From Mizuhopecten yessoensis (lineage: Eukaryota), in assembly GCF_002113885.1 (NCBI RefSeq), contig NW_018480077.1, positions 1,153,930 to 1,217,929 of the forward strand: a stretch of 64,000 bases of DNA, in the 5' to 3' direction. This document shows, piece after piece, positions 12,801 to 18,800 of this stretch; position 1 is the first letter of the stretch, and each line of letters starts with the position of its first letter. The position numbers were made by a program.

Positions 12801-15800
12801 GTTACAAAACAATATTGTATACTATTGACCATATTGTTGACCATGGCCACAAACATTTGTGTCAAATAGTGGACCTAGCAGGGTTTACAAGGGGTCCAGA
12901 CACAGGTACTAGCCTTGTCTTTCAATATACCAATAGTTATATTATGGGTGTATTGACAGATGAGGCTAGTACCAGTGGTCTAAAAACACCTTCTGGAATC
13001 TGCAATGCTAAGTACCTTTAATTTATCAGAAGTTTTAAAAAGAATTATCTGAATATCATCCATTTTCCTTCAATTTTCCAAACTGCAGAGGGCTAAATTT
13101 GTTTCCTATACAAAATGAACATTTAATTTGGCAGAAGTATTCCATTAAAATCTTCTTGATCTTACACATGTTCAGTTCACATTTTTTTCCATACAGGAAC
13201 ATGAATCCTGATTGACAGGGGTAAACACTTCACCCTATACACCATTCAGATCAATGTTCATCGGCATGAGGAAGTCGTGCATGGCATATTTCCATGTCCA
13301 TAAGCGTGCTATCCGATTGAATTCATTCCTGTTTCCTGCGTACAGATGCCCAACCGTTGGTTCCATACAAACGTGACAATAAGGGTCCGTTAGTAATGAC
13401 TGAATACTGATCAACACTTTGGAAATTGTCAGAGCTAAACTCCAGTTATGATGTATTGAGTCCAAGCCCACGTCACCATGGCGACTGATGTTCGGATGAA
13501 ATATCTTTGTAATGAACCGTACTTTAGGAGGTCTCATTGGGTAACTGTAATATAAATTTTTTTATCATTATTGAAATATGGTGCCAGCAATAAAAATAAT
13601 ATCTTACATCTTCTTTATAGAACAAGTCATTCAAAGTCACTGGATGATATATTTGTGTAAACCTTCGTCCTCCCAAAAATATTAGATCCCTTCTTTTTAA
13701 ATAACCTCATCTATACCACATACTGTTACTGGTGACATACTTAATTAGTACGACAAATGAAGGACTTGCAGCCCTTTATAAATAAACTATTGATGGACAG
13801 ATTTGAGTTAAAAATCTATTTGGCTTTCATAGTGGATATCATTTTATCAACCAGCCAATGTTTCACGTGTTATTTACAGTATATAAGAAATTTGAAATAA
13901 AATGGGACAAAATACAAAGGGACAAAATGCGAACAAAACACAAAATTTCTCCTAAGTCATTACAAACAATAAGTATGAAAGGTTTTGTTGTCCTACCTTT
14001 GTGGTATCTGTAGGTACAACAAGAATAGACCTCCCTCGTAAGGACTCCCTTGGGGACCAGTGATGGAGGCCTGCCAGTGACAGCAGTGTCGGTCTAGAGG
14101 AGTAGCTTTGATCCCCTCTGGAGGGTCTGACTTTAGAGTCTTCAGTTCACTCCTCAGTCGGCGATGTCGCCAGGAGTTCTCCTCTATCGGTGGTGTACTC
14201 TGGAAAATACATTTGGAAATGTTAATATGACACAATTTTACTGGTCAGTCATTTACGGCATTCATCATCACCATTACGTTATTACTGTCTTATAAATGAA
14301 TGAATCAAAGAAATAAACTTATGTTATAAGGAACAGGTAGATCTAGAATTACTGAAATGAAGAGGTAAACCACTTTTGTAAAATTTTGCTTCTGTTGTAT
14401 GAAGCTGCAATTTCAAATAATGATGCATTAAGATATAAAGAAACAATCAGATTATGACTTTGTAGTCTGTATTACATGTATTTATATTTATTGAAACTAA
14501 TACTTAACTAATCAAATGAATTTTCTATCAAGTTCATAATTCATTTTGATATCATTTTTGAATGCAAGGGAGATAACTGTGTTACCTGTAACATCATGCT
14601 CTCTAAACAGTATTTACAAGGCGAACTCTCCAGTCTGAAAATGAACGGAAAAGAAAGAATTTGGTTAAAAAGTAACACTGTTCTAATATTGGATATTACT
14701 TTCAAGTTAATTGAATTAAACCATCTAATAGATATCTTATATATTACAATGTGAACTGACAGAAGTATGAGTAAACAAAAAAGTCAGACAAAAATATTGT
14801 TCTGACATCATTATAGCACACTTTTTATACGATTTGAGTCATATTTAGGCAATGTCCATGGACTCGTTTTTCACTGTTAATGAAAAGCAGGATCTGAAAA
14901 TTTGTTTCAACCAATCATTTTTGGGGATGGAGAAAGAAGGGTACAAGTGGCATGATCTGGAGGCTAGCAAAAAAACAAAACAAGGTGGAGGAATGTCGTT
15001 AGTGGCCTATGCTCCATCAAGGGACAACAGGATTATGCAAGTAAGCAATCATTTTGGCAGGTTTTTCGTGTATAGCAATATAAGAACCAATTACTTTAGA
15101 CAGACTTGTGAAAAGTAAATATCTATCCATTATCCAAGAAACCAGTATTAATAACCAAGGCAAAAATAATATTAATCAAATATTATTTATTTTACCTTTT
15201 TATATATGCAGACATGACACAGTACATGTTGATATTATTCAACATATATTAAATACAACACTTACAACTTTGTATAAATTGTTTTCCATGTCTTCACTCT
15301 GTACTGTGGGTAAAACAGCGGCCAACGCAGTTTGCAAAATTCTTTCCATTGGGAGTCGGTTGTCTCCCCTTCCAAGATTTGTCTCCATCTTGAACACACC
15401 CGTCCTGCTGTCCACAGGGAAATATCGTCTAGGTATTTAAATACTACTAACAACACTGAAAGACAGATAGAAATTGGTTCAGACAAATATGGTAAACATA
15501 TGGGAATTTTCAAAAAGGCTGATTTTGCTGTCTCTTTTTCACAATGATATAGACAGTTCGCAAAGTGTTACAGTTACAGATTCTATATTATTAAAACTGT
15601 CATGCTACATGATTAAATATGTTCTATGCAATGTTGTTTCATCCAGTGGCAAAAACTGAAGATACCACAGAGTCAAAAATAGCAATGTAAAGGGCATTTT
15701 CATATTTCATCAACCAACTGGTTATAAATCAAAAATCTTTCACTTTCAATTTTCTATTCAGCTCTGATTTTCAATCAACATTGACTGCTTGTGTAAACAA

Positions 15801-18800
15801 ATTATAAATATGAGACTTTGTTCTTAAAAGAATTTCTTTAAAGAAAATAATGACTTGAATTTTTTTCTTTCTAACGAGGCTTTTGTCAAGCGGAATTTCC
15901 AAGTCAAACTCAAGACTCGTTTTGTTTTCAAACTTTCCTATTCTATATTCTATGTATTATTTAAGATTCATAGATGCTTTCATAGTGGATAGCCAACTTA
16001 TAAAAAGTTCACAAAAACCTTTGCATCCATCTGGTTTCTTTTTTCCCATTTCTATACCCATTTACATGCATAAATATTACAGTACATGTAATGTAAATCA
16101 CTATTTGTGTAAAACATTTATTTTGTGAATTGAATTTTAATGAATGACATCTTAAGTACCACAAAAAAAACCAAATATATTTAACCATTACTGAATAGGT
16201 TTGAATAAATCCTACCAGGATTAAAATTCCATGTAAATTAAAATGAAAATGTCTATCTCATGACTGATTATGTGATTTTACAGTTAAAATCAAGAACAGA
16301 TTTGATCAAGTTTATTAGCCAGACCTTCTGGGGGCATGGAATCCACTAAACCTTCAGGTACCAGGTCTTTCTCTCTTGGCATTGTTAGTGAAGAGATTCG
16401 CTCAGTGAGTTTGTCCATTTTATGAGTGACACCAGACTTGACTCTCCTCGTCTCCTGTGGATCCTGACTTCCGTTTGTGTAGAAATCAAATGCTGCTCCA
16501 GGTTCCTCATTCCCTGAATCAGCATCTGAATCATCTTTCTGTTGATTATAAAACAAAACAAATGATTAGATTATGATTAACTCTATTATTTTATGAATAG
16601 TAATGTGTTGAAATACTCAACTTTTTATAACAATTAACACAAAAGATATATCCCATTACTAATCAATCCATGCCTATATATTTGCCATTCCTAAACATGG
16701 ACACAACACATATTTACAATGCAATGATAAGGGCTTTTTCAATGTACAATGCTGATTGGCAATAATGAAGGAATTTATACATTTTTCAAATGATTTTTCA
16801 ATGTGTTTATAATTTTTCATATTTTTTCTCAATATCTTATCAAGAAGAGGAAGTTAGCTAAAAAATATATTGCAAAACTTCTGAATCAATAATTTATGGA
16901 TGATATCTGCCAGAGGCAGTGATAGAAGGTCTAAACTGGGTAGTCCTGTTGTAACATTTCTCAAAAATTATGAACTATATATTTCACCATAAATCCATGT
17001 ACTATTTTTTTTAGGTTAAAGACCAGTCAAATTACAAGGGAATAGCTATATTTTTAACTTAAATTATTGATTATTAACTAAAACACTATAATGTAGTCTA
17101 ATTTACCAAACTGTTTCAATAATCATTTATGAGAATTAATAATGGAATTGGGACTTTCGAATTCTGACCTCGTTGTAAACTTCCTGATCTCCATCTTCTG
17201 AATTGATGTCTGATGTGAACAAGAAGAGATGGCAGGTGCTACACACAGGCTGGCCAAAGTTGGAGCCATAAAATCCATCACATATCATGCATCTTGAGTA
17301 CTGGAAAGATAAAGAGTGAGACATCATTATAAATATTATAGAGGCATGTCCTGTCCATTTTTTTCCCCACCAACCACGTGTATATATATGTTATTTTTTT
17401 ATGATTCCATGCCATTGACTGCTAATTATATAGCCTGGTCCCTAGACCGAGTTTTCCTCATGGTCCAACAGCAGACTTGAGGCATTCTGACAAAAAAGAT
17501 GTCTGGTTATAATTAATTTGGAGGCTCATGACACAAGACAGACATCTAACTTCATATGCCTAAACACCAGACATTATAATATCTGTCTGAATGTCTCAAA
17601 TCTAGTGTTGGAGCCAGAGGAAATTCTGGCTACCTGGTTCCTTACAGTAGAATATAATCATGAGCATAAGTATTAAAGCCATTTTGGTCTCTGTGGAGTA
17701 TAACATATATAGATAGATAGAAGAGTAAAATAGAATCATGATAAGAAGCACTGGATCCAGAACCTGTGTATCAGGATAAACCGGAATCATTTTTTATGCG
17801 GTAGATTCTAACACAAATATGTATGCCTGAAGAAAAATGATGAATTTAAATCAAATGTCGAGACAAATGAGTTGTAGAATCACTCTTATACCTCTATCTT
17901 GAGAAATTCAGAAATATTTAACTTGGAAACACTTCTTCCGGTTTTAGTGTCAGCCATATTGTTTGGGAATTACCTACTGTTGCGCATGGGTCAAAGCAAG
18001 TTCTACTTCCGGAAATCACCGGTGCGTACCAAACAGTAAGTCGGTAAGTAGACATAAGAATATTTGTCTGTCAAGACGACTGTGCCGATAAAACAGTTTT
18101 AGATTTGTAAAATTTTATTGTCCTTTCATTGTTTGAAATGGTGTAAGCTAATAGCAGGTTCAATTGTTGGAACTTACAAAGCTGTCAATAACGCAATGTT
18201 CTTGCGGCATGGCTAGTGAGTTCAGAAAATTGTGTGCGTTTTGGAGGGGGTGGGGGGAGGTTTACTGTAGTTATATTTTGATGAATTTCTGATATTTTTC
18301 CATAACATTCAAAACACTACAAATCCCTGATTCAATCAATAGATATGTTGGTTCTTGATGTAAATACTTGTTTCGTCTGTGAAATGCTAAAAATATATAC
18401 AGATCTTTAATTCAATAGATAATCCACTACAATGTATATGTATTAAGTGAAACTGTTGAATATGTTAAATCGTAGGGAAACAACCTAAAATGTAAATGAT
18501 ATTATATCGTAGAACAACAGCCTAACATTTTTGTGATGTTAAATTGTTTGACACCAACCTAAAATGTAAATATGACAACAACCTAAAATGTATCTGATAA
18601 TGTACCGCCTGCTCATATGACAACAACCTAACGTGTTTATGATGTTGTATCGTTTGACAGCAACCTAAAAATGTTTATGATTGTGTCTGACAACAACCTC
18701 AAACTTATTTTAAATTATGTACATGTATTTAATGACACCAACCTAAAATGTTTATGATGTCGTATTATATGACAACAATTAACCTAAAATTATTTACGAT

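What the first reader, a model, noticed from the sequence alone, without database searches (positions are those of the whole stretch)
13235..17957. Intact Morgue (zinc finger + F-box + pseudo-E2) in a probable mollusc
Seen: seven in-phase exons fuse a C4 finger, an F-box and a UBC fold whose catalytic Cys is Gly (HPNISRHGDVGLD; GGC at 13468-13466), while the HPN motif is kept. Known: this architecture defines Drosophila Morgue, an SCF-associated ubiquitination factor linked to DIAP1 turnover and reaper/grim-induced cell death, reported only in a restricted set of invertebrates. Inference: the partner and function outside arthropods are open questions, and bivalve IAPs are plausible substrates. 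Extra Cys pairs (PCKYC, YCHVC, HCCH) might form a second metal site.
Basis: partly seen in the sequence, partly recalled or inferred. Interest (0 to 1): 0.65.

Follow-up and report, generated by a model that had tools for sequence, protein, structure and literature searches.

The report
Ordinary Morgue gene, intact, invertebrate genome
This is an apparently intact gene for Morgue, a known invertebrate protein that joins a zinc finger, an F-box and an inactive ubiquitin-conjugating domain, so it is a correct but ordinary find.

Summary
On the minus strand, seven open exons (17957-13235) have GT..AG introns and compatible phases. They sum to 1164 nt, or 387 codons plus a stop.

Each exon was searched on its own:
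- Exon 4 is an F-box (Pfam 1.6e-6).
- Exons 6 and 7 cover Pfam UQ_con positions 1-55 and 57-139 (5.1e-11, 2.1e-24).
- Exon 7 aligns best to UBE2D enzymes (about 1e-26). It has Gly (GGC 13468-13466) where wild-type UBE2D1 has the catalytic Cys, and HPN is kept.
- Exon 2 carries exactly CX2CX12CX2C, and exon 4 has five Trp.

These are the features a 2013 paper gives as defining Morgue. That paper also says Morgue is conserved in Lophotrochozoa, Platyzoa and Ecdysozoa. So this is a Morgue orthologue of the known kind, not a new architecture.

Still untested:
- transcripts;
- a direct comparison with a real Morgue sequence, because the homologue databases were closed;
- the host organism;
- the proposed second metal site.

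The joined 387-aa model was never assembled or searched. Interest is low. The function outside flies is still open, and I found no paper linking Morgue to molluscs or bivalves.

The parts
17892..17957 (-). Exon 1 (22 codons). ATG at 17957-17955, with an in-frame TAA 12 nt upstream. Donor is GTATAA.
   Evidence: No Pfam family at E<=1 and no PDB match at E<=1. Assigned only by open frame, start codon and donor site.
17169..17300 (-). Exon 2 (44 codons). Holds the C4 zinc finger CX2CX12CX2C at 17291-17232, followed by an acidic tail.
   Evidence: Spacing counted on the translation. It matches the 20-residue motif given for Morgue in PMC3787007. Pfam gives only sub-threshold hits (XPA_N 0.041, Ephrin_rec_like 0.024). 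The PDB gives nothing better than E 3.7.
16325..16538 (-). Exon 3 (214 nt, ends in phase 1). An acidic, Ser-rich linker. Its last residues (…MPPE) read by eye as the first positions of the F-box.
   Evidence: No Pfam family and no PDB match at E<=1. The exon 4 F-box match starts only at profile position 10, so the start of the box should lie upstream. This is an inference by eye.
15266..15455 (-). Exon 4 (190 nt). The F-box core, with the Pfam match at 15450-15370, and a Trp-rich extension down to about 15286. It has five Trp.
   Evidence: Pfam F-box-like 1.6e-6 (28.2 bits, cut-off 24.3) and F-box 4.7e-5. Weak PDB hits are all F-box/WD40 proteins (5 hits at E<=1, best 0.0091). The five Trp were counted.
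14586..14634 (-). Exon 5 (49 nt), a short linker with CxxC (PCKYC). It is needed to carry phase 2 into phase 0.
   Evidence: Of 33 phase-compatible open AG..GT candidates between e4 and e6, it is the only one passing both simple splice criteria. Skipping it gives TAG at 14186-14184. At 16 residues it is too short for the search tools.
13997..14199 (-). Exon 6 (203 nt), the N-terminal part of the UBC fold. HCCH lies at 14088-14077.
   Evidence: Pfam UQ_con 5.1e-11, profile 1-55 of 140. PDB best hits are UBC core and UBE2D proteins at about 1e-11. It contains no Met, so it cannot start a protein on its own.
13235..13544 (-). Exon 7 (310 nt including TAG), the C-terminal part of the UBC fold. HPN is at 13498-13490, Gly in place of the catalytic Cys at 13468-13466, and YCHVC at 13381-13367.
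   Evidence: Pfam UQ_con 2.1e-24, profile 57-139 of 140. The PDB gives UBE2D2/D1/D3 at about 1e-26, and the alignment puts the Gly opposite the Cys of ICLD in 2oxq.
13022..13127 (-). Possible polyadenylation signals (ATTAAA at 13127 and 13022; AATAAA further on at 12486).
   Evidence: Pattern search. Consensus matches only, with no transcript evidence.

Best explanation
The locus is a single, apparently intact gene for an orthologue of Morgue. This is the invertebrate protein that puts a C4 zinc finger, an F-box and a catalytically dead UBC-fold (UEV) domain in one chain.

Most likely mechanism, with the basis of each step:
- Shown here: the UEV domain keeps the E2 fold and the HPN motif but has Gly where the thioester Cys should be. 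It therefore cannot carry ubiquitin covalently.
- Inferred from fly work (passages of PMC3787007): the F-box docks the protein on Skp1. The zinc-finger/F-box half and the UEV half both bind K48-linked polyubiquitin non-covalently.
- Inferred further: the protein acts as an adaptor that brings ubiquitylated clients or growing K48 chains to an SCF-type or other ligase context, and so shifts their proteasomal turnover. A DIAP1-type IAP is the leading candidate client.

None of the binding steps was tested here. The confidence given is for the identification as an intact Morgue orthologue. The adaptor mechanism itself is less certain, roughly 0.5.
For: - Gene structure: seven open exons, 6 of 6 GT..AG introns, consistent phases and 1164 nt in total.
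- Pfam, each exon searched alone: F-box-like 1.6e-6 and F-box 4.7e-5 in e4. UQ_con is 5.1e-11 in e6 (profile 1-55) and 2.1e-24 in e7 (profile 57-139). The two pieces abut exactly across the e6/e7 junction.
- PDB: e7 matches UBE2D enzymes at about 1e-26, with 46 of 88 aligned positions identical to 2oxq by my count of the midline. Gly sits opposite the Cys of ICLD, and HPN is kept. e6 matches at about 1e-11.
- Family diagnostics quoted in PMC3787007: CX2CX12CX2C is met exactly, the F box has five Trp, and Gly is at the active site.
- The Gly lies 76 residues from the C-terminus by arithmetic. In the fly it is 70 (Gly421 of 491).
- e6 has no Met, and skipping e5 gives a stop, so the UEV must be read together with upstream exons.
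- There is no second copy in the window. Each exon peptide hit only itself at E<0.1.
- Fly biochemistry for the mechanism: SkpA binding needs the F box, and both halves bind K48 polyubiquitin.
Against: - There is no transcript evidence. e1, e3 and e5 have no homology support.
- No real Morgue sequence could be compared, because the homologue searches and the Atlas were unavailable. Orthology therefore rests on architecture plus three diagnostics.
- The best PDB relatives are active UBE2D enzymes. The search returned no chain named Morgue.
- The zinc finger has no significant Pfam or PDB match.
- Even in flies the mechanism is unsettled. Deleting the F box or replacing the Gly with Cys, Ala or Ser did not change the over-expression phenotypes. 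The authors state that a direct action on DIAP1 ubiquitination is not established.
Confidence: 0.88

Rival explanations
1. These are two separate genes or transcripts read as one. One is a zinc-finger/F-box gene ending at exon 4. The other is a stand-alone UEV that starts at a Met inside exon 5.
For: Exon 5 contains two adjacent Met codons in frame, just before its donor. No domain spans the e4/e5 or e5/e6 junctions. No transcript data are available.
Against: Exon 5 has a strong acceptor (polypyrimidine 0.88) and exactly the length class needed to link the e4 phase to e6. It is the only one of 33 candidates that passes both splice criteria. The e4 donor is a perfect GTAAGT. An F-box protein ending after e4 would have no substrate-binding domain. 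The combined architecture reproduces all the published Morgue diagnostics.
Confidence: 0.05
2. This is an ordinary active UBE2D-type E2, and the Gly codon is a base-calling error (TGC read as GGC).
For: GGC and TGC differ by one base. The best PDB hits are UBE2D enzymes.
Against: The Gly is the feature expected with this zinc finger and F-box. Its neighbours also differ from the E2 consensus: GDVGLD against GSICLD in the alignment. The UBC exons lack a start codon of their own, and they continue in phase from the F-box exons.
Confidence: 0.01
3. The architecture is real, but the gene is either not expressed (a young pseudogene) or is a convergent F-box/UEV fusion that is not orthologous to fly Morgue.
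Against: All seven exons are open with canonical splice sites. Convergence would have to recreate the exact CX2CX12CX2C spacing, the five Trp and the Cys-to-Gly change together. According to the paper, no other UEV has that change.
Confidence: 0.05

Closest known systems
Drosophila Morgue (CG15437) and its reported orthologues in Lophotrochozoa, Platyzoa and Ecdysozoa
   Same: The domain order is the same: zinc finger, F box, UEV. The finger has CX2CX12CX2C, the F box has five Trp, and Gly replaces the active-site Cys. The Gly sits at a similar distance from the C-terminus (76 residues against 70)..
   Different: The model here is shorter, at 387 against 491 residues. Residue-level identity to fly Morgue could not be measured. 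Whether the extra Cys and His residues around the dead active site are shared with other Morgues is unknown.
UBE2D (UbcH5, UBC4/5 class) ubiquitin-conjugating enzymes
   Same: They are the best sequence relatives of the C-terminal domain (about 1e-26 for e7, about 1e-11 for e6). The HPN motif, the proline-rich motif before it and the Trp after the active site are all kept.
   Different: The catalytic Cys is Gly. The loop that reads NPDDP in UBE2D reads YCHVC here. The domain is fused behind an F-box instead of standing alone.
Canonical UEVs (Mms2/UEV1, TSG101)
   Same: They also have a UBC fold without the catalytic Cys, and they bind ubiquitin non-covalently. This background comes from passages of PMC3787007.
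   Different: The paper states that no other UEV has Gly at the active site. The top 60 of 267 PDB matches for e7 are almost all UBE2D-type or UBC4-like E2s, and none is named a UEV. Those proteins are not fused to an F-box.
Ordinary F-box proteins (SCF substrate receptors such as the FBXW proteins)
   Same: The F-box motif passes the Pfam cut-offs, and the weak PDB matches are all F-box/WD40 proteins.
   Different: No WD40, LRR or other usual substrate-binding domain follows the box. A UEV domain does.

Membership tests
Morgue | N-terminal 20-residue C4 zinc finger with CX2CX12CX2C | tested here: met
   Exon 2 translation has exactly this spacing, at 17291-17232. The criterion is taken from PMC3787007.
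Morgue | Central F box | tested here: met
   Pfam F-box-like 1.6e-6 (28.2 bits against cut-off 24.3) and F-box 4.7e-5 (23.6 against 20.5) on exon 4 alone.
Morgue | F box typically with five conserved Trp | tested here: met
   Exon 4 has five Trp. Only the number could be checked. No Morgue sequence was available to compare positions.
Morgue | C-terminal UBC-fold (UEV) domain | tested here: met
   UQ_con 5.1e-11 (e6) and 2.1e-24 (e7), together covering profile positions 1-139 of 140. UBE2D matches in the PDB.
Morgue | Gly in place of the active-site Cys | tested here: met
   GGC at 13468-13466 aligns with the Cys of ICLD in wild-type UBE2D1, entry 2oxq.
Morgue | All three domains in one polypeptide, in the order finger, F box, UEV | tested here: inconclusive
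   They are colinear on one strand with compatible phases and canonical splice sites. No transcript data exist, and the joined model was deliberately not built.
Morgue | Sequence orthology (reciprocal best hit or tree) with fly Morgue | not testable with these tools
   The homologue databases are closed, the Atlas did not take new sequences, and the PDB searches returned no chain named Morgue.
Morgue | Binds Skp1 through the F box, and binds K48-linked polyubiquitin | not testable with these tools
   Known only for the fly protein. No Skp1 or ubiquitin sequence was available for a complex prediction.
Catalytically active E2 (UBE2D class) | Active-site Cys that forms the ubiquitin thioester | tested here: not met
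   Gly at that column.
Catalytically active E2 (UBE2D class) | UBC fold with the HPN motif | tested here: met
   HPN at 13498-13490, with the UQ_con matches.
SCF substrate-receptor F-box proteins | F box followed by a recognised substrate-binding domain (WD40, LRR or other) | tested here: not met
   Only UQ_con follows the F box. No other Pfam family was found in any exon at E<=1, apart from two sub-threshold hits in exon 2.

The most novel reading that the evidence does not exclude
The dead active-site cleft of this UEV may have been rebuilt into a metal-binding or redox-sensitive site. In the alignment to UBE2D, exon 7 has gained His at three positions flanking the Gly (sRHgdvG, siHHnw). It has also gained a CHvC knuckle in the loop that reads NPDDP in UBE2D. 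If these residues lie together in the fold (recalled, not measured here), they could bind zinc. That would give Morgue a second metal site that tunes polyubiquitin or IAP binding. This would matter in a lineage whose IAP family is greatly expanded, if the host is indeed a mollusc.
Probability: 0.1. Interest if true: 0.45.

Novelty: already known. Interest (0 to 1): 0.2.

Why it matters
It matters only a little. Morgue has been known since 2002, and by the account in PMC3787007 its spread across Lophotrochozoa, Platyzoa and Ecdysozoa was described in 2009. An intact copy in another invertebrate genome is therefore expected.

Its use is practical. The molecular role of Morgue is unsettled even in flies. 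I also found no paper in the searchable library that links Morgue with molluscs, bivalves or oysters. A 2026 survey of metazoan IAPs does not mention it at all (0 occurrences).

If the host is a bivalve, it has dozens of IAPs: 40 in Crassostrea gigas and 159 in Mercenaria mercenaria, as quoted. That would make it a reasonable animal in which to ask whether Morgue acts on IAPs.

Tried and rejected
- Joined model: not built. Every search used single exons. Exon 5 (16 residues) is below the 20-residue minimum and was compared only with the window itself.
- ESM Atlas look-up of the F-box exon: the tool answered that it does not hold the sequence and cannot read new ones.
No fold search was run.
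The genome collection holds only bacteria and archaea, so I did not use it. No reciprocal-best-hit test and no alignment with real Morgue proteins could be made.
- Zhou et al. 2009 (Mol Biol Evol), the paper on Morgue distribution, is not held. Its content is known here only through its citation in PMC3787007. I recall its abstract naming Mollusca among the phyla. No supplements were consulted.
- Zinc finger against Pfam and the PDB: nothing significant.
- Exons 1 and 3 against the PDB: nothing at E<=1.
- Rfam and tRNA scans of the window: 0 hits each.
- Paralogue search within the window: only self hits.
- Naming the organism: not possible with these tools.
- Geometry of the proposed second metal site: not testable, because there are no coordinates and no homologues.
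Full report
1. What is there

On the minus strand between 17957 and 13235 there are seven open exons: e1 17957-17892, e2 17300-17169, e3 16538-16325, e4 15455-15266, e5 14634-14586, e6 14199-13997 and e7 13544-13235. All six introns begin with GT and end with AG, and the acceptors have pyrimidine-rich tracts. The phases run 0/0/1/2/0/2/0. The ATG at 17957 is preceded by an in-frame TAA 12 nt upstream. 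ATTAAA and AATAAA words follow the stop.

Every search below used one exon at a time. Exon 5 (16 residues) is too short for the search tools.

2. Domain content, exon by exon

- Exon 4 matches Pfam F-box-like (1.6e-6, above cut-off) and F-box (4.7e-5, above cut-off), starting at profile position 10. By eye, the missing first positions are supplied by the tail of exon 3 (…MPPE).
- Exon 6 matches UQ_con positions 1-55 (5.1e-11), and exon 7 matches positions 57-139 (2.1e-24). The two pieces abut, and the split codon supplies position 56. This is good independent support for that junction.
- Against the PDB, exon 7 finds 267 chains at E<=0.001. The best 60 are almost all UBE2D or UBC4-type E2s, at about 1e-26. 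Exon 6 finds 194 chains, the best at about 1e-11.
- In the alignment with wild-type UBE2D1 (2oxq), the query's GDVGLD lies on GSICLD. The Gly (GGC 13468-13466) therefore replaces the catalytic Cys, while HPN is kept.
- Exon 4 has only weak PDB matches (5 at E<=1, best 0.0091), and all are F-box/WD40 proteins.
- Exon 2 has no significant Pfam or PDB relative.
- Exons 1 and 3 have none at all.

3. Is it one gene?

- Exon 6 contains no Met, so the UBC fold cannot start there.
- If exon 5 is skipped, the frame hits TAG at 14186-14184.
These were a polypyrimidine fraction of at least 0.75 and at least 4 of 6 matches to GTAAGT.
- One alternative is not excluded by sequence: a transcript starting at the two Met codons inside exon 5. 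Only spliced reads can settle this.
- There is no second copy in the window. Each exon peptide hit only itself below E 0.1.

4. Comparison with what is known

I read passages of PMC3787007 (Zhou et al. 2013). Its Introduction gives the Morgue hallmarks:
- a 20-residue C4 finger with an essentially invariant CX2CX12CX2C;
- an F box that typically has five conserved Trp;
- Gly in place of the active-site Cys, which no other UEV has.

The locus meets each one. The finger spacing is exact (17291-17232), exon 4 has five Trp, and the Gly is in place. By arithmetic the Gly lies 76 residues from the C-terminus, against 70 in the fly protein (Gly421 of 491).

The same paper says Morgue is conserved in Lophotrochozoa, Platyzoa and Ecdysozoa, citing Zhou et al. 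2009. I could not obtain that paper. I recall that its abstract lists Mollusca. So the architecture is a known one in a known range of animals.

Orthology therefore rests on architecture and these diagnostics, not on a reciprocal hit.

5. How it most likely works

Shown here: the UEV cannot form a ubiquitin thioester.

Inferred from fly work:
- The F box binds Skp1. SkpA was recovered in vivo, and earlier pull-downs depended on the F box.
- Both the N-terminal half and the UEV half bind K48-linked polyubiquitin.

The most likely role is a non-catalytic adaptor. It would couple ubiquitylated clients or K48 chains to an SCF-type context and so change their turnover. DIAP1-type IAPs are the candidate clients.

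Against over-confidence:
- In flies, deleting the F box or changing the Gly to Cys, Ala or Ser did not alter the over-expression phenotypes.
- The authors state that direct action on DIAP1 ubiquitination is not established.
- Morgue also affects circadian light responses.

IAP expansion in molluscs is documented (listing and abstract openings, passages of PMC13159474). That 2026 survey says a DIAP1 homologue exists in most protostomes, including molluscs, but it never mentions Morgue (0 occurrences).

The second metal site

The named Cys pairs exist. In the alignment to UBE2D, exon 7 has also gained His next to the dead active site, plus a CHvC in the loop that reads NPDDP in UBE2D. HCCH in exon 6 replaces (D/E)MFH. 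From recall these exon 7 positions flank the E2 active-site cleft, so a metal site there is conceivable. This stays a speculation. PCKYC sits in a linker exon that has no homology support.

6. Surroundings and organism

- The gene is flanked by non-coding and repetitive DNA.
- Further away on the plus strand are two B-box/NHL-like (TRIM2/3-like) ORFs at 4124-5629 and 7576-8460.
- There is also an INTS8 gene whose exon pieces are colinear with the Pfam profile from 43820 to 49850.
- No Rfam family and no tRNA were found.
- The window has no N and is about 30-37% G+C in most 2-kb windows, ranging from 25% to 47% in the satellite tracts.
- None of the tools could name the organism, so 'probable mollusc' is unverified. 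Nothing suggests human sequence.

7. Verdict

This is an intact-looking Morgue gene of the already described kind. It is ordinary, and its interest is low.

Open points are transcript support, reciprocal orthology, the identity of the host, and whether the extra Cys/His cluster means anything. Literature searches for Morgue together with mollusc, bivalve, oyster or Lophotrochozoa terms found nothing relevant beyond PMC3787007. These searches cover only the held library, not subscription journals or supplements.

Noticed in passing
window 43820-49850 (+): An Integrator subunit 8 (INTS8) gene. Seven ORF pieces are broadly colinear with Pfam TPR_INTS8, from profile positions 2-78 up to 339-376 (two of them overlap at 160-187). 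The best E-values are 1.5e-18 and 1.7e-11, and two pieces fall below the cut-off. A 100-nt x3 tandem repeat lies inside its span, at 49000-49303.
   Followed up: partly
window 4124-5629 (+) and 7576-8460 (+): Two long single ORFs are TRIM2/3-like. The first has a B-box (6.6e-7) and an NHL-like C-terminal region (PDB TRIM2/TRIM3, 4e-7). The second has only the NHL-like part (2-5e-7). Neither ORF shows a RING.
   Followed up: partly
window 53713-57131; 33940-35504; 22789-23600; 29032-29758: Large satellite arrays: a 29-mer x about 120, a 38-mer x 41 (strongly strand-skewed, G+C 0.47), a 36-mer x 22 and a 52-mer x 14.
   Followed up: no
window 18474-18778: Five degenerate 47-nt direct repeats (68-83% identical to the reference copy) lie about 0.5-0.8 kb upstream of the Morgue-like start codon. 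Their meaning is unknown.
   Followed up: no
window 13480-13367 (-): Relative to the UBE2D alignment, the UEV has gained His at three positions beside the Gly and a CHvC in the next loop. From recall these positions flank the E2 active-site cleft. Conservation and geometry could not be checked.
   Followed up: partly
window 15453-15451 (-): In two of the three alignments printed, the first codon of the exon 4 reference (TTG) appears as m instead of l. This is a quirk of the tool's start-codon handling, not a feature of the sequence.
   Followed up: no
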